A DNA stretch of 64,000 bases from Lingula anatina (GCA_051362555.1 CM120647.1:20188651-20252650); one strand, 5' to 3'; positions 6,243 through 58,946 are shown, counted from the stretch's first letter. The notes: generated from the sequence alone by a model not told the origin. A program made the numbers and translations.

Positions 6243-8494
6243 ATTAGTAACTGAGTGAGTTTATAAAAAAGTAAGTAAATAAGCAACATGATAAATTAAT
6301 GAATTAATGAAGAAAGAACAGAGAATGAAAATGAAAACAATAAAATGAAAACATTAAAAAAGAATGAACGATTGAAAGAAAGGATGAATAAAACAATAAA
6401 CAAACAAACAAAACACAGACATACACAAATAAATAAGACATCCTAGATTTCCTGGTAACTTCCTACCTTTCTCTTATACAGCTTGCTGAACCTGTCCCTG
6501 AGGTCAGAAAAGGTGTGTCTGATACAGGTATTGTTAGCTAGGGTCAGTAGGGTGTGGGGCTGACCAACAGGAGGGACGGAACACAGGCCAGTCTTCCAAC
6601 CTTCCTGGTTCCAGTAGATAAACTTCAAGGACGGCTTCAGTCTGGGAGAAATAAGAATTAGGTTTTAGGTAGCAATGGTTTTTGTAAAATCTTTTGACAC
6701 AAATCTGACTGATGTAGAATTGTTTTTAAGGTATATATTATTGGATTTTTGCACTTGTGGTGAACTTGATGAACGGCTTCAGTCTGTGAGAAATAAGAAT
6801 TAGGTTAGGTTTTAGGTAGTAACGGTCTCTGATATATCTTTTAATAATAAACTGATATTAGATTCTCTTTGACATAAAAACAATAATAAAACGTTTTCAG
6901 GGTAAAAAAAGTGTCCATGTCAATCTTGAATTACTAACACAATTTAACACCTATTATACAGTAGAGACTTAGCGACCGAGTGGGCCACACATAGATGACA
7001 ATAAAAATCTCTGTAATAAATTTATTACAACTACTACATGTACCATATAATCAGTCACATCGACACAAACTTGTACTCTGAAGATAGAGGTATCAACACT
7101 TACCTCTCTATATTCCTCCTGATATCTGACACCTCTACACTCCCCCGTACCATCAGGGCACAGGCCAGATACAGACCATGTTTAGGGTCAGCTTTGATGA
7201 GCTGGTGGTCCTTGGAAAATGCATCACTAAACATCTGGTCTAATCTATATAAAGATAATAAAAGCATGATGCAATATAAGAAAACTAATCGTGTTTTAAA
7301 CATTTCAAATTCCAGACTTTTTTGTAAAGTCTGGAATCCAAAATGCCTGGTATATCCATAAAATGATGTAATATAATAATAACAAGATGCAATTTTAAAA
7401 CACCCAGAATTCATTAATTTATAAAATAATGAATCAACATTTAATTCTTCTCCATTCTAAATTTAACTTAAATCCGTCCACTAACTTTCTGAGTAGGCAG
7501 GTTAAATAAAAAAGAAAAACAATTAAAGGCAAAAACATAACCTCCTTGTCATGACAGGAGTTTAAAACTTTTTTTATCATGTTTTATAATATGATCATTA
7601 AGAGCGCATTCAGAACAGTGGACTAACAGACCCGCGAATCAAATATGGCCGACCCACTTGAATGGGTCGGCCATATTTGATCCGCGGATATGTTAGTCTA
7701 CTGTTCTAAATGCTTGTTGCATTTTCTCCACGTGGAATGTATTCAGTGTCTTATCGAGGAATTATGCTGCAAACTTTTTAGTGGGTTGTCATATTGGATC
7801 CACTGAACTGTTAGTCTGCAGTTCTGAATGTGCTCTAAGGCTGTATTCAGAACAGTGGACTAACTAGTCTGAGGGTCAAATATGGCAACCTCCTCCAAAG
7901 CTTGCTGTCTAATAAGGTAACAGACACTGAATAGAATCCCTGTAAGGAAGTATTCAAGTGGGTCGGACATATTTGACCCTCGGACAAGTAAGTACGCTGT
8001 TCTAAATACGCTCTAAATTCTTACCTTCTTGGGGGTATCTTCATATCAGCAGAGGCATACAGAGGGGTCTGGCTGGAGATCAGGTAGTGTAACTTTGGAA
8101 ACGGGACCAGGTTCATTGTGATCTCGTTTAAATCCACGTTCAGAGAACCTTCAAATCTGGCCGAGCTGAAATGGTTCAAAAATAAGTGCAATAGTAAGAG
8201 ACTTATTAAATTATACTCCCTTTAAATGACATAAAAACAAAAAAAAAAAAAATACTGAAAAAGAACAAATCTGTTCTAATAATGATAATAACAATAAAGT
8301 TATTTTAAAATGCATCTTATGTACTACCACATCTAAGCAATGTGTCCTAGAATATTATCAACATAATTTTCTTTATCTTTTTTTTTAACCTTCTCAAGGG
8401 ACCAACTACTAGTATGTTGTATGAGGTAGGGGATGACAATGAACTATATTTTTCTGCATGTACATGAACTTCATAAAACTCAACAACAATTTCC

Positions 8495-8535
<41 letters not shown>

Positions 8536-11500
8536 TGTTGTATATGTAATTCTCATTTTGGCTTTTATTTTTGGGGGGTGTTTGTACATGTGCGCATGTA
8601 CTCATCTAACAATACCTGGTTAAATTCAGCAACAAATTTGCCACAATATTATTCATGGTATCAAATGGCTGTTCATCTGGTCCCTTCACTATACTGCCAT
8701 GACTAGAGGCTATGCTGCTGGCTGCCTTCACGTTGCCTGATATCCCCACTGTTTTCTTGCCCAGGTTTGATGGCGGCAGAGCTTGGCTGATCTTGTTGAC
8801 AATATCTACCAGAGCCTGAAATATATTGTTGTGCAGTGCAAAATATGTCTGAGTTCAGCAGTTGTTTACAGATTGAAAGTATTATTGTAACTTTGAGTGT
8901 AAATTAAAACATGTATGTATGGCTGATAACTGAAAAATGAAGAAAAATATTAAATGTCCATTCTTTATGCCTGCAATAAATGCTCACTGTCACTAATTTA
9001 AAATGAAAATAAATTTTGCTTTTCTGAAAGTTTTTGCATCACAATCCCTTGGTTCTTGACTGGAAAAGTGATCTTTCTACCTTAAGCTGACACACATTTA
9101 GAAACGCCATGGAACCTAGATCAAACATCCTTTTGAATTTTTTCCTGACAAAACATTGCTATTTTAGAAATGTCTACATTAATGTAATAATTAAACCCTA
9201 TATTACTGCTCAATAGTTTCTATCCATATGACACAATTTGTTATACATTTTTAATGTTACTCCATGTGTTTGGAAGTGTTACTAACCTGGTTCTCCACTG
9301 GTAATACACAGTCAGCGTTTTCAGTCAGTTCTCTCATGGCTAGCACACTGTTATAGGGAGAGGTTATCACATCATCTTCAGCAGATGGGTACACAGCAGT
9401 GACAAACCTAAATATATATGAGAAATATATAAATAAGATCAATGAGGAAAAAAACGTATCAATTAAGAAGCAATAATAAATTTTAAGGTTTTATTACTAG
9501 CTGTGAGGAGTAATTTACTCAGTGAAGAAACTTAAACAATTTACCTTAAAATTTTTCTGAATATTCTACTGGTACAATTAATCTAAGGAACAAAACTTAC
9601 ATCATCACCAAAAGAGAGGTTATTTATTACTTTGATTTTTATTGTATCCATTTATTTATTTGGTGAATATTTGTGGAGGGGGAGAATCAATTGAGTGTTT
9701 ATTTTTTTAAAAAAATCTATGAATATAACTAATTTAAAACATGCAAAATAAATTGCCATTCTTGATCATTCATCACCAGTTATTATTTTTTATTTACATA
9801 AACATTTGTAAAAGAAACTGTTACTACTCAGAAGTCCATCATTACTTTAACATACCCTTATTTGTTTCTGTATATGGTGCACTAAACTTTTAAAAAAATG
9901 CCATGTGCTGCCAGTTACCCAGTAGTGTCACCATCCTCAGTTATCCAGTTAGTGTCACCACCCTCTATGTGACAAACACCACCTCCTTGGCAGCTGTTGC
10001 AAACTTCAGTTGACATTCTTGATTGCAATCAGAACCAGTTTACCTGGGCTGCCAGAATACAGGTAAACAATGGATGCCACTTTTAATCACCATCCTCATC
10101 ACATTACCTGGAGCCAGTTAACTCTACCTGCAGTACCATACCACAGGTAAGACACCAGTGACACCTCCTGATTGCAATCAGCACCAGTTAACCTGTCCAG
10201 GTAAACAAAAGGTGTCATCTACCACAGGGGGTCAGTGACAAACAAACACCCCTGTCACCTGTCAATCTGGTCACTGTCACCCACTGACCAATTGTGCTTA
10301 GTTTTACATAGGTGGCTGAAGCAAAGTGCCAATCAGAGGCATGTTTGCAAACTGGCAGGTGGCAGGGGGGTGACATGTTATAAAAAGGGAAGCCAATGTT
10401 TGGCAGGACACAACAGCTTTGGCATCTTCAGTGTCAACTTGTCTCTGTGTCGCCTTGTGACTTGTACTGTGTCACCAGACTGACAAATTTGTGTCAAGTT
10501 GTGAGTTGTACTGTTCTGTCAAGCTAAGTGTCACAGTGTCAGCTATCACCAACTGCCAAAAAGGAAACTTAGTGCCAACTTTGTGCCACCTGATGATGTC
10601 AAGTTATATATCCAGCATGGAGACAAACCTCAACCTGCCAACTGACAGTGAAATCCAGGTATGTTTTTGCATGCTTCATGTCTTAATGGTTTAAGAAGTC
10701 TGTGCTCTGTGAGAAAAGTAATATCAGTTCAGCACCAGTTCAGTACCATGTTTTTTTAAATTTCTCCCTGATGAAACTAAGTGAAACTACCTAAGATCAA
10801 GGCTCTAGCAAAGAGAAACTTATTTTGTAAAGCAATTAGATTTTTTTTTTTTTGTGAATAAAGTCATATCCCTGTAATAAGTGTAATGTTTAAGCACAAA
10901 AGCCATTTAAGTGATAATAAAAAGAACTAGTTAATATTTCTGTTTACTTCTTACACATGAAAATTCTTGGTTTCTGAATTTCAGCGAGTAATATACAATA
11001 ATAATAAATAAATAAATGAATTGTTATATATATTTTATATTTAGTTGAGGTTATATCACTAGTAAACAGTAGTGTTTTTATGTATGAAGTGTGTGTCTTT
11101 ACACGAATTCTAACATATTGTCCTCTTCATCTTACAGGCTGTTTTGTCCTTCACGGGCCAGCATGCATCACTGTACCACCAAAGTGATTTGGACCAAGCA
11201 AATGCCAATCCAACATACACTGCTGAGATCCACAGCATCCACAGTTCCCTTGCCTCAGAAGATCCAGCCATTCAATCTGCCTCTCAGTTACTGCCGGTGT
11301 CTACTACAACAAATCCACTTCCCAGTGGAGATGATGGAGATTATGCCACATTAAGGGACATTCTTCAGGAAGAAATCAGCTCCTCCCAAGTGCCATTAAG
11401 CCTGCTCAGCGGTGTCGCCAAACAAGTTCCCATCAGTGTGCGAGCGTCATTCTTGGATCTTCTCTTTATGAGACTACGACTACGTGCAACGAGCCAAGTA

Positions 11501-14011
11501 CAAGAGCTCCATACCATGTATCTTGATCAGCAAAGGGAGTTGACACAAGAACGTGAGTTAGCACTCTCCTCTGTAAGTGACCAAGAACTGAGAAAGGCCA
11601 CAGTCTGCCATTTTGATGAAATTGAGTACAGACTCATGGATCGTGTTGAGAAAAGTCTCAAACTTCTAGAACAATATATCACGCAAAATGAGGACATCAT
11701 CAATCCTATGGCTATTGTTCCATCAGACACAAACTTCGCCAGGAGCTACGAGAATCCACTTACCCCTGAATCACCAGTAGGGGGCACTGGTGTTGCTGTC
11801 ACTTGTTCATCAAACTTACAACATCGTTTGATAGGCAGTGTGACCCCTGTTCAGCCATCTTTAGCATGGACCATTGACACTTCACCCATCATGCCAATGG
11901 ACATTTGCTCTACCAATGCTAAACCCAGCTCTGATGCCACAACAAATCCTCCTCTTGCCAACACTGAGCCAAATGACACTCCATCTGCCACACATGATAT
12001 GGACAAAGCACAAAAGCCTGTGACTTTCAAGATGCCTCCAAAGCCAAGAACTGCCTGCTACGACTTCCCTCGTAAAGTTCTGTGGGCGTGGTTGGTGAAC
12101 AATCAGTATGATCTGTGCCCCACGTCAACCGTCACCTCTGATCTTGCCACCAAGTCTGGCCTCACTATCACCCAGGTGGAGAAATGGTTTCGCAACCAGC
12201 GACAAAACATCAGGTTTGAGACCTTCAGGCTGATAAGGAATAAACCAACACTAGATGGCAGCACAACTCCAACTCCCACCACTACCACCGCCACATGTCC
12301 CAATACAAGCCACAACAGTGACTCAGCTCCCACTAAGAAAAAGAAACATGAGCGTCGTCCAATGCCCTACGAGAGTGAAATGAACCATTTGTGGAAATGG
12401 TTGATGAGAAATGACTGCAACTTGTATCCCTCTGAAACAGTGATAAGAGAGATAAGCAACAAAATGGACATGTCTTCTGAGCGCCTGGTGCAGTGGTTCC
12501 GAGCTCAGAGGGAGGGTCTTAAGCGCAAAGCTTCTCCATATTTGTCATGAACTGTTGGTTTAAAATTTAAACAGTTTGTAAACAGTAAAGATGGTATGTG
12601 TGGCTACAGCAACTTTCAACTTTTTCCAAAATCATTTCTAATCATCAATATGCATGCTTGTTTTAATATGGTTATTATTGTGTTATAAGACAAATTAAAG
12701 TGCAAATTTTAGAAATGATGCAGAACTTAGTATTTAAATGTACTTAGTTAATTGGAAATTTGTATTTGACGCAAATTGATCAGTGTAACTGCCAAGAATT
12801 TTTTTTTTTTTTTTTTTTTTGTATCTCAGTTATGTACATGTATCTTAGCTTACATGATGGAATCATTTGTTCATCTTATTATGACAAAACAATTCAGTTA
12901 ACAAACTTGTACCCAGATTGTTTTACTTAGCTGAATTTCATGTAGTATTTTCTGTAGTGTAACTGCTCAAAAATAATAATGTCAATGTACTAACAGTTTA
13001 TAAGTAAAGACAATGCCAAATGTTCACACTTTAAATTTATGCCATTAATCAGATAATTGACAACTGCCAAAGATTGATAAATTGTAAGACCTGTTTGTTT
13101 CTATCTTTCTTTACTTCTTTGTATTATGATGATTATTGCATGACTACCTTGTATTTTTAAAGTGTTCAACTCAGAAATTTTCTGTAAGATTTGATTTACG
13201 ACACAATTTGCTCTCTTCATATGCCATTTTGACAAATAAACAAAAGTACAACTGAACCATTATATTGTTTCCTCAATACCTTCAGGCTTCAGACATCCAA
13301 CAAACTTCAGTCATGCACATAACATGTGTATACCATCCCACAGCGTTATTTTCCCAAATCTGTGTTGTTATTCCCACTGGCAAGATTATGTTACGACCTG
13401 CATCAATATGCCTCCTCAACATACCCCCCCCCCCCGCCCCAGCTTGATCTCAACCCCCACCATCAACACTGATACCCCCAGGGGTGGATCCAGAGATATT
13501 TTCTGACAGTCTCTCAAATTATCTATGTTGATCCCTCCTACATCCCTCTTCCGACAGAAAAAAGTAAGATACCAGTCATTGTAAACTTGAAAATCTGACC
13601 GTCTTCCTGAAGACCCAGACAGCGGCCTCAATCTGCCCCTGACCCCATCCCCAAACTGGGTTTTGAATGACCACCAATCAACTTCAGTCACTTTCACTGA
13701 TTGTCACTGTGATGTTAAAGGATACAGCCAATACCTGGGACAGTCTGTGAGCACCTTAAATTTCAACTCTAACTCGTTCTCACCTCGCTATACACTTTGA
13801 CTCACCTGTTCAGTGGGCAACTTGGTTTCACTCACCTGTACAATTTTACTCACCTGTTAAGTATATAGCCTTACTATACTCACCTGTAAACATCTGGATA
13901 TTCATCCTGCAGAAGGTTGAGGACAAATGTTCCAACTCCTGACCCTGTTCCTGAACAAGAAAATAAAATGATCACATACATATGAATCAATGCAGAATGC
14001 TTAAGTTTTAC

Positions 14012-14919: not shown

Positions 14920-17417
14920 GGTCCCACCGTAGTGGGAAATAGAAGGTAAATTTTCATTTTCACTTCAGGTGACTGTTGCTCATCATCACAAGTGTCGATA
15001 AAGACAGTGCAGTTTTCAAGGAAGTAATAGTGAAATAATAATACACTTCACGTAAGTTTCTTTTTATTTTGGGCTACAAGTACCGGTACATCTGTTATAT
15101 TTTCTCTAATTTTGTAATGGCTAAGGCACTGAATCTATTTATTTTTAACAGTTGTAGTCATAGTTACAGTAATGGATTTTTAAATAGCATCTAAGCACAT
15201 ATTTTCATCACCCTGATATTTCCCTACCAGTTTTTTTTTTTTTTTTTCAATGGCTGACACTACATGTATAGCAAGTAATGTACAATTAATATTGTAAATG
15301 TACATTTGGTTAGGTTTTGAACTGTGATAGTGTGTGACTTAAAAAAGTACTAGTAATAATCAGAATTAGTTATTCACTATTGGTTCATAATAAAAAAAAA
15401 TTGACCACATTCCACAGATATCACTTACATGGACCAGTAGTAAAACACAAGGTTACAGTACCACTGTCTGTCTTATTGTAAAAATATCCTTATTTTCCAG
15501 ATGCTACCAACACAACAAGATGTCTGACCATGTCTTAGCCAATCAGATCTCAGCAGACCACCTGACCTGCAGTATCTGTCTGGGGCGTTACTGTCAGCCC
15601 AAGGCTCTACCTTGCCTTCACACCTTCTGCCTACAGTGCCTCCAAGATCACATCACAGCCACTGGCCGATCTGGCGTCTTTGAATGTCCAAACTGCCGCA
15701 AACAGACCATAGCCATTAGAGGCGGAGCATCCTGTTTCCCAGACAACCATATAATAAACAGTCTGCAACACACTGTAGGTGGCAGCACCTCTCCTGAGCC
15801 TTCAGCACCACCTAGTGAGGAGGTTGATGAAGAGGACAATGTGGGGTCTCCAGTGAGGACACCACCAGGTTCAGCAGACGTCCCAGTAATACAATGGCCT
15901 CCACCACCCCCTCGTCCCCCACAAGCCCCTGTCCCTTCTGTACCATCCCCTACCCATTCTTCAAATCACCCAACAAGTACACCCACTCCTCCCCCTCCCC
16001 CAACACCCCCTAGGCCTGCACACCCTCCCCTCGCACCCATCACCCCCAGGACAGCTAACTCACCCCACACACCAACTATCACTACCCCCCAAAGAGCACC
16101 CCCACCTCCACCCCCTGTACCACAAAGAACCACCTCCCCAGGGTCACAGGGTCGACTGTGCACAGGATATCGTCTTCTCAGGCCCACTGGTGTCACCATT
16201 CTCAACACTGGTGACGTTGTGGTGTCAGACAGCGGTGATAACAAAATCGTCACCTTTGCTCACGGTGGTCAATACCGCTCCCATTTTCAGTGCGATTGTG
16301 AGGTGAAAGATATTGCGACGATGCCTGATGATACTCTGATTGTTGCTGTTAATAAGGCGGGATCTGCCATTGCCCGGGTTTATTCCCACGATGGCCGTGT
16401 GTTGAAAGACCTTGGGAATCAGTACTACTATGAAGAGCCTCATGGGATAACGGTCAGTCACCAAACTGACCAGTTTATAGTCACTAATGTGGTGCGCTGC
16501 TGCATCTATCTTTTCAATATGGGGGGCAAGCTGGCACAGCAATTCGGCAGTAAGGGTCACAGCACCACTGGGTTCTCCCCATATTACTGTGCCATAAACG
16601 GGAAAGGAAATAAAATTCATGTGTCTAACACTGATGCCCATAATGTCAAAGTTTTTGACACACTGGGTAATTTAAAGCACATGTTTGGGGAGGAAGGGAA
16701 TAAACCTGGACAGCTCAAATCACCCCAGGGGATCTGTTTGGACAACAGGGACAACATCATAGTTGCCGATTCTGGGAATTATCGCATACAACAATTCGAC
16801 CATCAAGGCAAATTCAAGAAGGTGTTAATACGGGATACCAGGCAGCAGGATGGAGGTTTGAATGGAAAACCATGTGGCTTGGCTTTGTCCCCGAGACTTA
16901 ATATTTTGGCAGTGACCGTGCAGGGGCCGTCGCAAGGTGGCGTGATTCTGTACCCATACAGGGGGAATTCTGGGAAGGTCAATCCTGTTACTGGGAGTCC
17001 TCAGTCAGGGGCTTGTAATGTTTCATAGCAGCAAACAAGAACATTAACATCTATGAAGATTTAAAGGCATATTTAAAAAAAAAAAAAAAACCTTATTGTG
17101 TGTATTAAGGCAAAAGAGAGGGCAACAGCAAAAAGGATAAGACTACAAACCACAAAGTTACTGAAGTGGCCTTTTTTCTGAGGCTTCACCAAAGACATAA
17201 GTGATATTATTTTAATATTATTTTTTAAAGCCTTATGGTGTCATGAAGTACTCATGCAAATGAGAAAGGAATATTTCCAGGCCCATGCATTATTCAGAGG
17301 GTATAGAGAGACTTGTAGTTAGATTTTGAGTTAATAATTCATGATGCTGTCTGTCCTTCCATGTTATGCTGTATCTCAGGAAAAGTGTTTTGTGTAAATT
17401 TTTAAACATTTTTTTTT

Positions 17418-32008: not shown

Positions 32009-33070
32009 ATGTTGAACAAAACCGCTAACCTGGGCTCCAACTTCGCCAGCGACTACCCAGGCCTGTCCCCACAGGAGCTCTGCTGGGTGTTCCAAGGAAA
32101 TTGCTGGTGTGCCACGATCTACGTCCTGACCATCATTGGATTCGTGGGGAGCCTCTTAACCTTTATTGTTGTCCTCCGCAGTGAGCGTCTCCGTTCGAAG
32201 TCCACATTCATCTATCTGTTGTTCTTGGCGGCAGTTGACGAGTTCGTGCTATTGTACCTCTCAGGGGAGTGCCTGAACTTTCACCTGAGCCCCCCTTCAA
32301 CTGATCAAGTCTGCATGATCGAATCTGTAAGGTACGTCGTGAGTGACACCCTCGTGTATCTGTCCGTGATCTACGTGACGGCAGTGACGGTTGAGAGACT
32401 GATCATTGTAAAATGGCCGTTGAAAGCTGCATATCTGTGCCGAAGGCGGACGGCCATCGTAGCGTGCGTCGTGACAGCTTTTGTCGTCTTGGCCTTCAAC
32501 TGCTATAACTTATCTATGTGCTACGTTGGGATTGAAACGATAAGCTTAATCATTACAGCCGGCGATTACATGTTCATAACAATCCACGTCATCTTGGGTT
32601 TGACGATCGCTGTTTTAACGGCCATCATCATCTTCGAATTGTCGCGCTCCAGTGCCAGACGCCGGCAGATGATGACGGCCACACCAGCAGCGAGGGCAAG
32701 TTCAGGGTCAACAAGGGAGTCATTCGCCCAGAAAACCCACGTTTTGCTCCTGACCACGCCCATTTCTTTCACCATTTTGGCGTGGCCCAAATATGGTTTT
32801 GACATCTGGTTGGCGACGATGGAGATTCAGGGTTATGCATTAGGCGAAGATATACCGATGATTTATAACGTTGTCAGAGAAGCGTTATTTTTGCTGAGTA
32901 AAGTAAACCATTGTATTAACTTTTACCTCTATGTCGCCTCTGCACCTGTTTTCAGAAATGAAATTAGACGTGCGTTTTGCAGACCAGGGAGGTTGGCAAA
33001 AACGAATCCACATCCAAATAACATTCACGACAGTAGATCAAGCGTGCGTACTGTATCAAGTCGTATCTGA
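32009..33070 (+). CDS. Class A (rhodopsin-like) GPCR, FMRFamide-receptor-like/chemoreceptor-like, copy 1 (353 aa)
   Basis: Seven hydrophobic segments; motifs GFVGSLL, YLLFLAAVD, TVERLIIVKWPLKA, ILAWP, NHCINFYLY..FRNE. ATG 32009 is preferred over the GTG at 31913 because it aligns with the paralog starts and gives an N-glycosylation site (NKT). Confidence 0.92.
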   Translation: MLNKTANLGSNFASDYPGLSPQELCWVFQGNCWCATIYVLTIIGFVGSLLTFIVVLRSERLRSKSTFIYLLFLAAVDEFVLLYLSGECLNFHLSPPSTDQVCMIESVRYVVSDTLVYLSVIYVTAVTVERLIIVKWPLKAAYLCRRRTAIVACVVTAFVVLAFNCYNLSMCYVGIETISLIITAGDYMFITIHVILGLTIAVLTAIIIFELSRSSARRRQMMTATPAARASSGSTRESFAQKTHVLLLTTPISFTILAWPKYGFDIWLATMEIQGYALGEDIPMIYNVVREALFLLSKVNHCINFYLYVASAPVFRNEIRRAFCRPGRLAKTNPHPNNIHDSRSSVRTVSSRI

Positions 33071-39126: not shown

Positions 39127-40212
39127 ATGTACAACACCACCGCTTATCTCAGCTTCGACTTTGCCAGCTTGTACCCAGGCCTGTCCCCACAGGAGCTCTG
39201 CTGGGTGTATCAAGGAAAATGCTGGTGTGCCACGATCTACGTCCTGACCATCATTGGATTCGTGGGGAGCCTCTTAACCTTTATTGTTGTCCTCCGCAGT
39301 GAGCGTCTCCGCTCGAGGTCCACATTCATCTACCTGTTGTTCTTGGCGGCAGTTGACGAGTTCGTGCTATTGTACCTCTCAGGGGAGTGCCTGAACTTTC
39401 ACCTGAGCCCCCCTTCAACTGATCATGCCTGCGCGATCGAGTCTGTGGGGTTCTTCATGAATGACACCTTCGTGTATCTGTCCGTGATCTACGTGACGGC
39501 AGTGACGGTTGAGAGACTGATCATTGTAAAATGGCCGTTGAAAGCTGCATATCTGTGCCGAAGACGGACGGCCATCGTAGCGTGCGTTGTGACCGCGTTT
39601 GCCGTTGTGGTCTTCAACAGCTATAATTTATCCATGTGCTATGTCGGGATTGAAACAAGGCTCTCTATCCTGATAGCAGGCAGTTACATGTTCATCAGCA
39701 TTCACTCCGTCTTATGTTTGGCGATCGCAGTTTTAACGGCCATCATCATCTTCCAACTGTCGCGCTCCAGTGCCAGACGCCGGCAGATGTCGACGGCGAC
39801 ACCAGCAGCGAACGCAGGTTCAGGATCAACTAGGGAGTCATTCGCCCAGAAAACCCACGTTTTGCTCCTGACCACGCCCATTTCTTTCACCATTTTGACG
39901 TGGCCGAAATATGGTTTTGACATCTGGTTGGCGACGATGGAAATGCAGGGGTATTCATTTGGCGAAGATATACCTATGATTTATAATGTTGTGAGAGAAG
40001 CCTTATATTTGTTGAGTAAAGTAAACCATTGTATTAACTTTTACCTCTATGTCGCCTCTGCACGTGTTTTCAGAAACGAAATAAGACGCGCGTTTTGCAG
40101 ACAAAGGGAGGGCAGTGCTGCGGCGACGCCTGGATTGACAAAAACGAATCCACATCCAAATAACTTTCACGGTAGTAGATCAAGCGTGCGTACTGAATCA
40201 AGTTGTATCTGA
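39127..40212 (+). CDS. Class A GPCR copy 2 (361 aa)
   Basis: Intact ORF with the same 7TM motifs as copy 1; N-terminal NTT site. Confidence 0.93.
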   Translation: MYNTTAYLSFDFASLYPGLSPQELCWVYQGKCWCATIYVLTIIGFVGSLLTFIVVLRSERLRSRSTFIYLLFLAAVDEFVLLYLSGECLNFHLSPPSTDHACAIESVGFFMNDTFVYLSVIYVTAVTVERLIIVKWPLKAAYLCRRRTAIVACVVTAFAVVVFNSYNLSMCYVGIETRLSILIAGSYMFISIHSVLCLAIAVLTAIIIFQLSRSSARRRQMSTATPAANAGSGSTRESFAQKTHVLLLTTPISFTILTWPKYGFDIWLATMEMQGYSFGEDIPMIYNVVREALYLLSKVNHCINFYLYVASARVFRNEIRRAFCRQREGSAAATPGLTKTNPHPNNFHGSRSSVRTESSCI

Positions 40213-47055: not shown

Positions 47056-48141
47056 ATGAATACCACAACTGCTTCTGTGGGCTTCGACCTCGCCAGCTTG
47101 TATCCCGGCCTGTCCCCACAGGAGCTCTGCTGGGTGTATCAAGGAAAATGCTGGTGTGCCACAATGTACGTCCTGACCATCTTTGGATTCGTGGGGAGCC
47201 TCCTAACCTTCATCGTTGTCCTCCGCAGTGAGCGTCTCCGCTCGAGGTCCACATTCGTCTACCTGTTGTTCTTGGCGGCAGTTGACGAGTTCGTGCTATT
47301 GTACCTCTCAGGGGAGTGCCTGAACTTTCACCTGAGCCCCCCTTCAACTGATCATGTCTGCACGATCGATTCTGTAGGGCATGTTGTGAGTGACACGCTC
47401 GTGTATCTGTCCGTGATTTACGTGACGGCAGTGACGGTTGAGAGACTGATCATTGTTAAATGGCCGTTGAAGGCTGCATATCTGTGCCGAAGACGGACGG
47501 CCATCGTAGCGTGTATCGTGACCGCTTTTGTCGTCTTGGCCTTCAACGGCTACAACTTATCTATGTGCTACGTCGGGGTAGAAACGAAACTCTCTGTCAT
47601 AACAGCCGGCAATTACATGTTCATAATCATACACGTCATCTTGTGTTTGACGATCGCTGTTTTAACGGCCATCATCATCTTCCAACTGTCGCGCTCCAGC
47701 GCTAGACGTCGGCAGATGTCGACGACGACACCAGCAGCGAGTGCAAGTTCAGGATCAACAAGGGAATCATTCGCCCAGAAAACCCACGTTTTGCTCCTGA
47801 CCACGCCCATTTCTTTCACCATTTTGACGTGGCCGAAATATGGTTTTGACATCTGGTTGACGACGATGGAGATGCAGGGGTATTCATTTGATGAAGATAT
47901 ACCGATGATTTATAACGTTGTCAGAGAAGCCTTATATTTGTTGAGTAAAGTAAACCATTGTATTAACTTTTACCTCTATGTCGCCTCTGCACGTGTTTTC
48001 AGAAACGAAATAAGACGCGCGTTTTGCAGACAACGGGAGGGCAGTGCTGCGGCGACGCCTGGATTGACAAAAACGAATCCACATCCAAATAACTTTCACG
48101 GTAGTAGATCAAGCGTGCGTACTGAATCAAGTTGTATCTGA
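47056..48141 (+). CDS. Class A GPCR copy 3 (361 aa)
   Basis: Intact ORF; 7TM motifs as in the other copies. Confidence 0.93.
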   Translation: MNTTTASVGFDLASLYPGLSPQELCWVYQGKCWCATMYVLTIFGFVGSLLTFIVVLRSERLRSRSTFVYLLFLAAVDEFVLLYLSGECLNFHLSPPSTDHVCTIDSVGHVVSDTLVYLSVIYVTAVTVERLIIVKWPLKAAYLCRRRTAIVACIVTAFVVLAFNGYNLSMCYVGVETKLSVITAGNYMFIIIHVILCLTIAVLTAIIIFQLSRSSARRRQMSTTTPAASASSGSTRESFAQKTHVLLLTTPISFTILTWPKYGFDIWLTTMEMQGYSFDEDIPMIYNVVREALYLLSKVNHCINFYLYVASARVFRNEIRRAFCRQREGSAAATPGLTKTNPHPNNFHGSRSSVRTESSCI

Positions 48142-57944: not shown

Positions 57945-58946
57945 ATGAATACCACAACTGCTTCTGTGGGCTTCGAATTCATCAGGAAACACCCAGGCCT
58001 GTCCCCACAGGAGCTCTGCTGGGTGTTCCAAGGAAAATGCTGGTGTGCCACGATCTACGTCCTGGTCATCACTGGATTCGTGGGGAGCCTCTTAACCTTT
58101 ATTGTTGTCCTCCGCAGTGAGAATCTGCGCTCAAAATCCACGTTCGTCTACCTATTGTTCTTGGCGGCGGTTGACGAGTTCGTGCTATTGAATCTCTCAG
58201 GGCAGTGCCTGTTCTTTCACCTGAAACCCCTGTCAACTGATCATGCCTGCGCGAACTATTCTGTGATGTACTTCTTGAATAACACGCTCGTGTATCTGTC
58301 CGTGATTTACGTGACGGCAGTGACGGTTGAGAGACTGATCATTGTGAAATGGCCGCTGAAAGCTGCATATCTGTGCCGAAGACGGACGGCCATCGTAGCG
58401 TGCGTCGTGACCGCGTTTGCCGTTGCGGCCTTCAACGGCTACCTACTGTCGATGTGCTACGTCGGGTTTGAAACGAGACGCTCTGTCGTGTTAACCGGCA
58501 AATACGTTTTCATCAGCATCCACGTCATCTTGTGTTTGACGATCGCCGTTTTAACGGCCATCATCATCTTCCAACTGTCGCGCTCCAGTGCCAGACGCCG
58601 GCAGATGTCGACGGCCACACCAGCAGCGAGCGCAGGTTCACGGTCAACAAGGGAGTCATTCGCCCAGAAAACCCACGTCTTGCTTCTGACCACGCCCATT
58701 TCTTTCACAATTTTGACGTGGCCCAAATATGGTTTTGACATCTGGTTGGTGACGATGGAGAATCAGGGGTTTCATGAAGACATACCGACGTTTTATAGCG
58801 TTATCAGACATGCGTTATTTTTGTTGAGTAAAGTAAACCATTGTATTAACTTTTACCTCTTTGTAGCCTCTGCGCGTGTTTTCAGAAACGAAATAAAACG
58901 CGCGTTTTGCAAACAAAGGGAGGACGTGCCGCGACGCCTGGATTGA
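57945..58946 (+). CDS. Class A GPCR copy 4 (333 aa; C-tail shortened by frameshift)
   Basis: Intact 7TM core. A net 4-nt deletion after helix 8 gives an early TGA; the old tail persists out of frame downstream. Confidence 0.9.
   Translation: MNTTTASVGFEFIRKHPGLSPQELCWVFQGKCWCATIYVLVITGFVGSLLTFIVVLRSENLRSKSTFVYLLFLAAVDEFVLLNLSGQCLFFHLKPLSTDHACANYSVMYFLNNTLVYLSVIYVTAVTVERLIIVKWPLKAAYLCRRRTAIVACVVTAFAVAAFNGYLLSMCYVGFETRRSVVLTGKYVFISIHVILCLTIAVLTAIIIFQLSRSSARRRQMSTATPAASAGSRSTRESFAQKTHVLLLTTPISFTILTWPKYGFDIWLVTMENQGFHEDIPTFYSVIRHALFLLSKVNHCINFYLFVASARVFRNEIKRAFCKQREDVPRRLD

What the first reader, a model, noticed from the sequence alone, without database searches (positions are those of the whole stretch)
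15520..17028. RING-NHL ligase with PSAP motif and CaaX-like terminus: candidate membrane-anchored, ESCRT-recruiting E3
Seen: a TRIM2/3-type RING is joined to a six-blade NHL propeller by an acidic then Pro-rich linker, with no B-box, coiled coil or filamin domain. The linker contains EPSAPP (PSAP at 15799-15810) and the protein ends ACNVS* (Cys at -4, Ser terminal). Established: P(S/T)AP binds the TSG101 UEV domain (used by the RING ligases MGRN1 and LRSAM1); CaaX with X=S is a farnesylation signal; RING+NHL-only architecture is known from malin. I do not recall this combination in TRIM-NHL proteins. Inference: a prenylated ligase coupling cargo ubiquitination to ESCRT sorting.
Basis: partly seen in the sequence, partly recalled or inferred. 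Interest (0 to 1): 0.7.

Follow-up and report, generated by a model that had tools for sequence, protein, structure and literature searches.

The report
Lipid-tailed RING-NHL ligase family in lophotrochozoans
This expressed lamp-shell (Lingula) gene encodes a stripped-down, ubiquitin-ligase-type protein whose tail is likely given a lipid anchor and whose floppy middle likely docks the cell's membrane-sorting (ESCRT) machinery; relatives in a tube worm and in molluscs carry similar signals.

Summary
A 502-aa ORF encodes a TRIM2/3-like RING, a disordered acidic/Pro-rich linker with EPSAPP, a six-bladed NHL propeller and a CNVS-stop end. RNA reads show no splice inside the coding region. The protein is not a one-off: it belongs to a RING+NHL-only family (brachiopod, annelid, chiton, bivalves, gastropods, octopus; 28 clusters studied) that forms its own clade apart from true TRIM2/3. 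The lipid tail has family support: the 8 earliest-branching rows end in Cys tails (CNVS, CICL, CACM, CACQ, CYVQ, CC, CCK, GCLS), and CNVS scored as prenylated in published yeast screens; the other 20 rows (bivalves, gastropods, octopus where named) lack a usable CaaX. PSAP is weaker: alone it has about a 20% chance in this linker and its position is not conserved, but the family is enriched for it (6 of 23 linkers, 1.0 expected) and for other ESCRT-type motifs, above all YPx[L/I/V] (16 of 16 main mollusc orthologs; absent in Lingula). Best reading: a weakly farnesyl-anchored endosomal E3 ligase that recruits ESCRT adaptors. Prenylation, binding and ligase activity are untested. A new variant of a known kind; moderate interest.

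The parts
14969..15051 (+). Upstream 5' UTR exon (3' edge shown by reads; 5' edge inferred from the polypyrimidine-AG in the sequence); holds an in-frame stop
   Evidence: Joint 15051->15501, GT..AG, 6 reads in X1 and 2 in X4; in-frame stop
15520..17028 (+). Single coding exon, 502-aa RING-linker-NHL-CaaX protein
   Evidence: 98% identical to RefSeq XP_013413647.1; continuous RNA depth and no listed internal joint
15526..15780 (+). RING-HC finger (aa 17-59) with both flanking helices (aa 3-14, 77-87) and linchpin Arg60
   Evidence: Pfam zf-C3HC4; helices in model; alignment to TRIM2; TRIM2 key residues from PMC9732051 passages
15781..16140 (+). Disordered acidic then Pro-rich linker (37% Pro) in place of B-box, coiled coil and filamin
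   Evidence: pLDDT mostly <50, no helix; composition
15799..15810 (+). PSAP motif (aa 94-97), candidate TSG101-UEV ligand
   Evidence: chance 0.195 alone, 6 of 23 family linkers against 1.0 expected
15898..16014 (+). Two PxxxPR motifs (aa 127-132, 160-165), candidate CIN85/CD2AP-type SH3 ligands (partner recalled, not from a call)
   Evidence: chance 0.52 in this linker alone, 13 of 23 family linkers against 3.0 expected
16159..16959 (+). Six-bladed NHL beta-propeller, presumed substrate-binding module
17014..17028 (+). CNVS + stop: CaaX box on a disordered 22-residue tail, no second Cys, one Lys in the last 20 residues
   Evidence: CNVS positive in yeast screens

Best explanation
This is an expressed Lingula gene for a TRIM2/3-like RING-NHL protein without B-box, coiled coil or filamin, which is likely farnesylated on its CNVS tail, likely binds ESCRT/endocytic adaptors through its disordered linker, and so would ubiquitinate propeller-bound membrane cargo at endosomes for sorting. 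Shown here: gene structure, expression, domain anatomy, a separate lophotrochozoan family, Cys tails on its early branches, and enrichment of PSAP, PPxY, YPx[L/I/V] and PxxxPR in family linkers. Taken from published data: yeast FTase accepts CNVS. Inferred: farnesylation in the animal; a weak, transient membrane hold (farnesyl with no second signal, as for Rheb) that protein contacts would have to localise; PSAP binding TSG101 (molluscan orthologs would use YPx[L/I/V] and ALIX instead); RING activity, with membrane clustering standing in for the lost coiled coil. The cargo is unknown.
For: Intact spliced transcript ending in CNVS*. All eight zinc ligands and linchpin R60 present, and L6, I10, I78, L82 match TRIM2 dimer-helix residues V12, I16, F82, L86. 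Family is one clade, 100/100, apart from molluscan TRIM2/3 orthologs. Cys at -4 in 6 of 23 clusters against 0 of 124 TRIM2/3-type controls. The five early-branching CXXX ends all pass the cut-off of 3 in the Ydj1 screen (CNVS 5.33, CYVQ 6.46, CACQ 3.79, CACM 3.47, CICL 3.01) while the one CXXX nested among tail-less bivalves, CSEI, fails (1.88); CNVS and CACM are in an experimentally derived positive set. The Cys-tail label needs one change on the 28-row tree. Linker motifs against shuffles, 23 linkers: PSAP 6 (1.0), PPxY 7 (2.1), hydrophobic-YPx[LIV] 16 (0.25), PxxxPR 13 (3.0); collapsed to 13 lineages: PSAP 5 (0.98), YPx 8 (0.24), any ESCRT-type motif 10 (2.6). In 5 clusters found after the motifs were fixed: YPx[LIV] 5, PPxY 4, PxxxPR 4. 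The Mytilus LYPSL lies in a pLDDT<50 segment, as a linear motif would. Full-length TRIM2/3 already act with ALIX/ESCRT.
Against: PSAP alone has a 19.5% chance in the Lingula linker and is not alignable between lineages; P0151, a >=90% cluster-mate of P0007, reads SSAP where P0007 has PSAP; only 1 of 5 later clusters has it (P=0.28). Three early-branching CaaX/Cys-tailed members (P0271, P0021, P0122) have short linkers with none of the ESCRT-type motifs, and most motif-rich molluscan members have no CaaX, so tail and motifs co-occur in only 3 of 28 clusters (Lingula, P0007, chiton). Lingula lacks YPx[L/I/V] and PPxY. PPxY is not significant after collapsing lineages (4 of 13, P=0.057). A third of all 8000 CXXX are predicted substrates, PrePS and FlexPepBind score CNVS negative and cleavage predictions disagree. 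No second membrane signal in the Lingula tail. TRIM2 F81, called crucial for activity, is His77 here. Motifs were first picked by eye, sequences are related, shuffles ignore real low-complexity patterns, the tail label was set by hand, and backbone forks are only moderately supported.
Confidence: 0.5

Rival explanations
1. The protein is a prenylated, membrane-visiting RING-NHL ligase, but the Lingula PSAP is a chance word; its linker serves SH3/WW-type partners unrelated to ESCRT sorting, and the YPx motif is a molluscan addition.
For: PSAP chance 0.195 and no positional conservation; SSAP in P0151; early-branching CaaX members P0271, P0021, P0122 have no ESCRT-type motif; Lingula lacks YPx and PPxY.
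Against: PSAP in 5 of 13 lineages against 0.98 expected, while none of the other permutations of the same letters exceeds 3 of 23; the [ED]P[ST]AP context has chance 0.015 (post hoc).
Confidence: 0.25
2. It is an MGRN1/Tal-like regulator whose substrate is the ESCRT machinery itself (TSG101 or ALIX) rather than membrane cargo.
For: LRSAM1/Tal and MGRN1 bind TSG101 through P(S/T)AP and ubiquitinate it (PMC7073217 passages); PSAP lies only about 35 residues behind the RING core.
Against: A conserved six-blade propeller implies a separate substrate-binding site; the docking motif differs among lineages.
Confidence: 0.1
3. It is a soluble cytosolic RING-NHL ligase that works like malin; both CNVS and PSAP are incidental in Lingula.
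For: 20 of 28 clusters lack a usable CaaX, several end right after the propeller; the Atlas feature search ranks malin-type clusters first (0.93; a lead only); farnesyl alone gives weak binding (PMC7255682 passages).
Against: Cys tails on all 8 earliest-branching rows, several with a second Cys and basic residues; CNVS measured positive in yeast.
Confidence: 0.1
4. It is an RNA-binding or catalytically silent TRIM-NHL-like adaptor (TRIM71/Brat-like), with membrane motifs secondary.
For: NHL domains of TRIM71 and Brat bind RNA (PMC9634614 passages); no coiled coil to dimerise the RING, and isolated human TRIM3 RING is inactive.
Against: The N-x-R basic position is filled in 6 of 6 TRIM71 blades but by Arg in 1 and Lys in 1 of 6 Lingula blades; the propeller is closest to TRIM2/3, judged unlikely to bind RNA like Brat; linchpin Arg kept.
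Confidence: 0.05

Closest known systems
TRIM2 / TRIM3 (class VII TRIM-NHL)
   Same: Closest RING and NHL by sequence and fold; linchpin Arg and flanking helices kept; linked to ALIX/ESCRT and endosomal sorting (PMC7409263 passages; Li et al. 2020 only as cited in PMC12804839).
   Different: No B-box, coiled coil or filamin; separate clade, and molluscs keep true TRIM2/3 orthologs beside it; 122 of 124 TRIM2/3-type hits end [RK]YLQ, none has a Cys in the last four residues, PSAP or YPx[LIV].
Malin / NHLRC1
   Same: RING plus six NHL repeats only, single coding exon (PMC3160408 passages).
   Different: Malin is reported in vertebrates and amphioxus only and as closest to TRIM32; this RING is far closer to TRIM2 than to TRIM32, so the architecture is probably convergent (inferred; no malin sequence was in my trees). 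Long Pro-rich linker and Cys tail here.
MGRN1 and LRSAM1/Tal
   Same: RING ligases with P(S/T)AP motifs that bind the TSG101 UEV domain (PMC7073217 passages).
   Different: Their motif is described as evolutionarily conserved or tandem; here it is single and shifts or disappears among relatives. No NHL domain or CaaX in them (recalled).
FBXL2 and FBXO10 (prenylated SCF substrate receptors)
   Same: CaaX lipidation, with nearby palmitoylated Cys in FBXL2, directs ubiquitination to membranes (PMC9988375 abstract; PMC11573457 search listing); several family tails are also CxC-type (CACM, CACQ, LCICL).
   Different: They are F-box subunits of cullin ligases; here RING, substrate module and CaaX lie in one chain.
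Late-domain proteins (retroviral Gag, ARRDC1, HRS)
   Same: Interchangeable P(S/T)AP, PPxY and YPXnL motifs in disordered segments (PMC8402826 passages); the family shows all three kinds.
   Different: Those are structural or adaptor proteins without their own RING; binding here is untested.

Membership tests
TRIM (RBCC) family | N-terminal RING finger | tested here: met
   Pfam zf-C3HC4 31 bits; TRIM2 RING E 2e-17
TRIM (RBCC) family | One or two B-boxes | tested here: not met
   No Pfam B-box; pattern absent in 20 of 20 family members, present in 3 of 3 controls
TRIM (RBCC) family | Coiled coil | tested here: not met
   37% Pro linker; no helix in aa 88-213 of the model
TRIM2/3 orthologs | Groups with TRIM2/3 in an NHL tree; filamin domain; [RK]YLQ end | tested here: not met
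   23 family rows form their own clade 100/100 apart from 17 TRIM-type rows including Solemya and Gigantopelta orthologs; no filamin hit
Malin / NHLRC1 | RING + six NHL repeats only, single coding exon | tested here: met
Malin / NHLRC1 | Orthology to vertebrate malin | tested here: inconclusive
   No malin sequence was retrieved, so none is in the trees; indirect evidence is against (RING closer to TRIM2 than TRIM32; malin range); Atlas features rank malin clusters first
CaaX-prenylated proteins | Cys four residues from a real, accessible C-terminus | tested here: met
   RefSeq protein ends the same
CaaX-prenylated proteins | Tetrapeptide accepted by a prenyltransferase | tested here: met
   Looked up in published yeast data: positive training set, Ydj1 enrichment 1.74 and HM score 5.33 against cut-off 3; PrePS and FlexPepBind negative
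CaaX-prenylated proteins | Conserved across orthologs | tested here: inconclusive
   Cys tails in the 8 earliest-branching of 28 clusters, no usable CaaX in the other 20
CaaX-prenylated proteins | Second signal (palmitoylated Cys or polybasic stretch) for stable anchoring | tested here: not met
   One Lys, no second Cys in the last 20 residues of the Lingula protein; present in several relatives
CaaX-prenylated proteins | Prenylation and membrane association of this protein in cells | not testable with these tools
   Needs labelling and localisation experiments
P(S/T)AP TSG101-binding E3 ligases (MGRN1, LRSAM1 type) | P(S/T)AP in a disordered segment | tested here: met
   aa 94-97, pLDDT <50
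P(S/T)AP TSG101-binding E3 ligases (MGRN1, LRSAM1 type) | Motif conserved in orthologs | tested here: not met
   6 of 23 and 1 of 5 clusters, at unalignable places; lost in a close cluster-mate; enriched over shuffles all the same
P(S/T)AP TSG101-binding E3 ligases (MGRN1, LRSAM1 type) | Binds and/or ubiquitinates TSG101 | not testable with these tools
RNA-binding TRIM-NHL (TRIM71/LIN-41) | Strongly basic propeller face | tested here: not met
   Sequence proxy only: N-x-R in 6 of 6 TRIM71 blades against Arg in 1 and Lys in 1 of 6 here; no electrostatic surface computed

The most novel reading that the evidence does not exclude
Lophotrochozoans have an undescribed single-chain, ancestrally prenylated RING-NHL ligase that works like a cellular 'late-domain' protein: lipid tail, substrate propeller, RING and interchangeable PSAP / YPxL / PPxY motifs in one chain sort ubiquitinated cargo into intraluminal or extracellular vesicles, and shelled molluscs swapped the lipid anchor for ALIX-type docking.
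Probability: 0.2. Interest if true: 0.75.

Novelty: new variant of a known kind. Interest (0 to 1): 0.5.

Why it matters
If true, it shows a TRIM-NHL-type ligase re-targeted by losing its B-box/coiled-coil/filamin core and gaining short membrane and ESCRT signals, apparently in parallel with malin. The prenylated ubiquitin-ligase components that my literature search returned were F-box subunits and MUB, not single-chain RING ligases. The family also offers a natural comparison (lipid tail in early branches, YPx motif in molluscs, ExxPLL plus CC tail in a paralog) for how linear motifs replace one another, and it corrects database labels that call these proteins TRIM2/TRIM3.

Tried and rejected
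No whole genome was held, so Lingula paralogs and its ESCRT genes could not be searched. The run search listed no indexed RNA holder; raw-read runs were laid instead, covering 14960-17400 only and 6-30% of each run. A RING homodimer prediction gave no verdict (score 0.23, mark 0.32). The profile search of cluster representatives was swamped by long NHL-repeat proteins (141 of the best 150 rows), giving only 5 new family clusters; the word-based searches also missed known members (one search lacked P0003 and P0007), so the family sample is incomplete and holds no second brachiopod or a named phoronid/nemertean. The Atlas answered for P0002 only. Earlier scan findings: none by sequence, none for the full word set. 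[DE]xxxL[LI] was not enriched family-wide (2 of 23, P=0.25). Rejected: splicing replaces CNVS; N-terminal extension (in-frame stop); TRIM2/3 ortholog; YPx segment as a structural part of the propeller (disordered in the Mytilus model; weak evidence). Three reads with a loose end at 15978 were followed up: their unlike part is not in the window and stays unexplained. Supplements of bioRxiv preprints were not opened; one scanned supplement of PMC9231725 could not be read.

Full report
Observation. The window holds an open frame at 15520-17028 (+) for 502 aa ending ACNVS*. It is 98% identical to RefSeq Lingula anatina XP_013413647.1/648.1, labelled TRIM3, which has the same length and ends; the 11 differences spare PSAP and CNVS. 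Pfam finds a RING-HC (aa 17-59) and NHL repeats but no B-box or filamin. The AlphaFold2 model (22-sequence alignment, mean pLDDT 77.6) has the RING with helices 3-14 and 77-87, a low-confidence linker without helices, six four-stranded blades, and a low-confidence tail 485-502. Foldseek and phmmer put the propeller closest to TRIM3 and TRIM2 and the RING closest to TRIM2 (E 2e-17; TRIM56 3e-13; TRIM32 6e-5). PSAP is at 15799-15810.

Gene structure. Reads of 4 RNA runs (233, 49, 11 and 16 laid) were laid on 14960-17400. The only listed joint is 15051->15501 (GT..AG, 6 reads in X1 and 2 in X4); depth in X1 is continuous over the coding region and through the stop, with no loose end at the 3' end. 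The upstream exon carries an in-frame stop. So the start is right and splicing does not replace CNVS in these samples; rare isoforms are not excluded. Three reads in X1 have an unlike 5' part at 15978, just behind an AG in the linker; that part is not in the window and may be an allele, another gene or a rare exon.

Family. Three word-based searches and cluster look-ups gave 23 RING+NHL-type clusters (three are N-terminally partial): Lingula, the annelid Lamellibrachia, a chiton, bivalves, gastropods, Octopus and unnamed records. Left out before counting: the Lingula allele P0002, cluster-mates, partial P0186/P0188 (replaced by full-length P0271), bacterial NHL proteins and amphioxus P0218/P0219, which have a B-box. 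In an NHL tree the 23 are one clade (100/100) apart from 17 TRIM-type rows, among them true molluscan TRIM2/3 orthologs. A profile search added 5 clusters among its best 150 rows; all fall among bivalves and gastropods. The sample is incomplete.

The tail. Cys stands at -4 in 6 of 23 clusters and within the last four residues in 11 of 23, against 0 of 124 TRIM2/3-type hits (which share one conserved end, so are a weak control); binomial P is 1e-5 to 2e-3 for assumed backgrounds of 2.3-6%, ignoring relatedness. The 5 later clusters add no CXXX. On the 28-row tree the 8 earliest-branching rows end CNVS, CICL, CACM, CACQ, GCLS, LCCK, SWCC and CYVQ, and one change separates them from the other 20; I set this label by hand, leaving out CSEI, RTCW, RSCR and VYKC, and the backbone has SH-aLRT 82-92 (95/96 for the mollusc clade). 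Published yeast data: CNVS and CACM are in the screen-derived positive set of PMC9231725 (supplement rows and passages); in PMC10320760 (supplement rows and passages) HM scores are CNVS 5.33, CYVQ 6.46, CACQ 3.79, CACM 3.47, CICL 3.01 and CSEI 1.88 against a cut-off of 3. Against: 33% of all CXXX are predicted substrates, PrePS and FlexPepBind call CNVS negative, and cleavage predictions disagree. The Lingula tail has no second Cys and one Lys, unlike several relatives; farnesyl alone gives weak, transient, organelle-unspecific binding (PMC7255682 passages). 'Membrane-visiting' fits better than 'membrane-anchored'.

The linker. In Lingula alone P[ST]AP appears in 19.5% and PxxxPR in 52% of shuffles. 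Across 23 linkers, observed against expected: PSAP 6/1.0, PPxY 7/2.1, hydrophobic-YPx[LIV] 16/0.25, PxxxPR 13/3.0. Collapsed to 13 lineages: PSAP 5/0.98, YPx 8/0.24, PxxxPR 7/2.8 (P=0.004), PPxY 4/1.8 (P=0.057). These patterns were first seen by eye; in the 5 later clusters YPx[LIV] was in 5, PPxY 4, PxxxPR 4, PSAP 1 (P=0.28). The YPx motif is in 16 of 16 main mollusc-clade rows, 16-27 residues before the propeller, is disordered in a Mytilus model, and is absent from Lingula and the four other rows outside that clade. PSAP is not alignable between lineages and reads SSAP in P0151, a cluster-mate of P0007. P(S/T)AP-TSG101, YPXnL-ALIX and PPxY-NEDD4 pairings and their interchangeability are from PMC8402826 and PMC7073217 (passages); PxxxPR as a CIN85/CD2AP ligand and [DE]xxxL[LI] as an adaptin signal are recalled, not from a call.

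The RING. All zinc ligands and the linchpin Arg (R60 = TRIM2 R64) are present; L6, I10, I78 and L82 match TRIM2 four-helix-bundle residues V12, I16, F82 and L86, while F20, F81 and V89 correspond to H14, H77 and T85 (PMC9732051 passages). TRIM2 needs RING dimerisation, so with no coiled coil activity would depend on these helices or on clustering at a membrane (inferred).

Mechanism. Most likely (0.5): farnesylation of C499 lets the protein sample endomembranes; PSAP and Pro-rich motifs hold it where TSG101 and endocytic adaptors are; the propeller binds an unknown membrane protein; the RING ubiquitinates it for ESCRT sorting. The lipid step alone I put near 0.7, the Lingula PSAP being functional near 0.5. 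Rivals: prenylated ligase with chance PSAP (0.25), regulator of ESCRT proteins themselves (0.1), soluble malin-like ligase (0.1), RNA-binding or silent adaptor (0.05). A real weakness is that tail and ESCRT-type motifs co-occur in only 3 of 28 clusters.

Comparison and novelty. It is not a TRIM proper (no B-box or coiled coil) and not a TRIM2/3 ortholog. It shares malin's architecture, but malin is reported only in vertebrates and amphioxus and as closest to TRIM32 (PMC3160408 and PMC3503706 passages); no malin sequence was in my trees, and the Atlas ranked malin clusters first by features, so convergence is inferred. Full-length TRIM2 and TRIM3 are already tied to ALIX and ESCRT (PMC7409263 passages; PMC12804839 passages), and prenylated SCF receptors are known (PMC9988375 abstract; PMC11573457 listing). 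Searches of the open library (listings only, except the papers named) showed no description of this family; subscription journals are not covered, and the molluscan L-TRIM paper, seen only as a reference title, was not checked. Two unchecked notes of this scan describe other RING ligases ending in CaaX, so the pairing is not unique. Verdict: new variant of a known kind, interest 0.5.

Noticed in passing
window 32009-33070, 39127-40212, 47056-48141, 57945-58946 (+): Four intronless rhodopsin-family GPCR paralogs in tandem, 77-90% identical to one another.
   Followed up: partly
window 11468-12550 (+): 360-aa ORF with a TALE/KN-type homeodomain (aa 208-246) and what looks by eye like a second, diverged homeodomain-like repeat near its end.
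   Followed up: no
window 7100-7414 (-): Exon with a tubulin C-terminal domain match; epsilon-tubulin-like from recall.
   Followed up: partly
window 15501-15527 (+): The coding exon opens with an out-of-frame ATG 19 bases before the start; its 8-codon frame stops just inside the main frame, a possible overlapping uORF.
   Followed up: no
window 15978 and 15997 (+): Three reads each (X1, X9) have unlike 5' parts inside the Pro-rich linker; the one at 15978 follows an AG, and its loose part is not in the window.
   Followed up: partly
proteins P0006, P0144-P0150, P0009, P0155-P0157 (not in window): A paralog clade (Mercenaria among them) with a short linker holding E-x-T-P-L-L, a dileucine-type sorting signal (recalled), and a CC or CCK end.
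   Followed up: partly
proteins P0012/P0272, P0328/P0419, P0014 (not in window): Heterobranch snails have alternative C-termini; one form ends with Cys at -2 (RTCW, GPCW, RSCR), a possible switchable lipid site.
   Followed up: no
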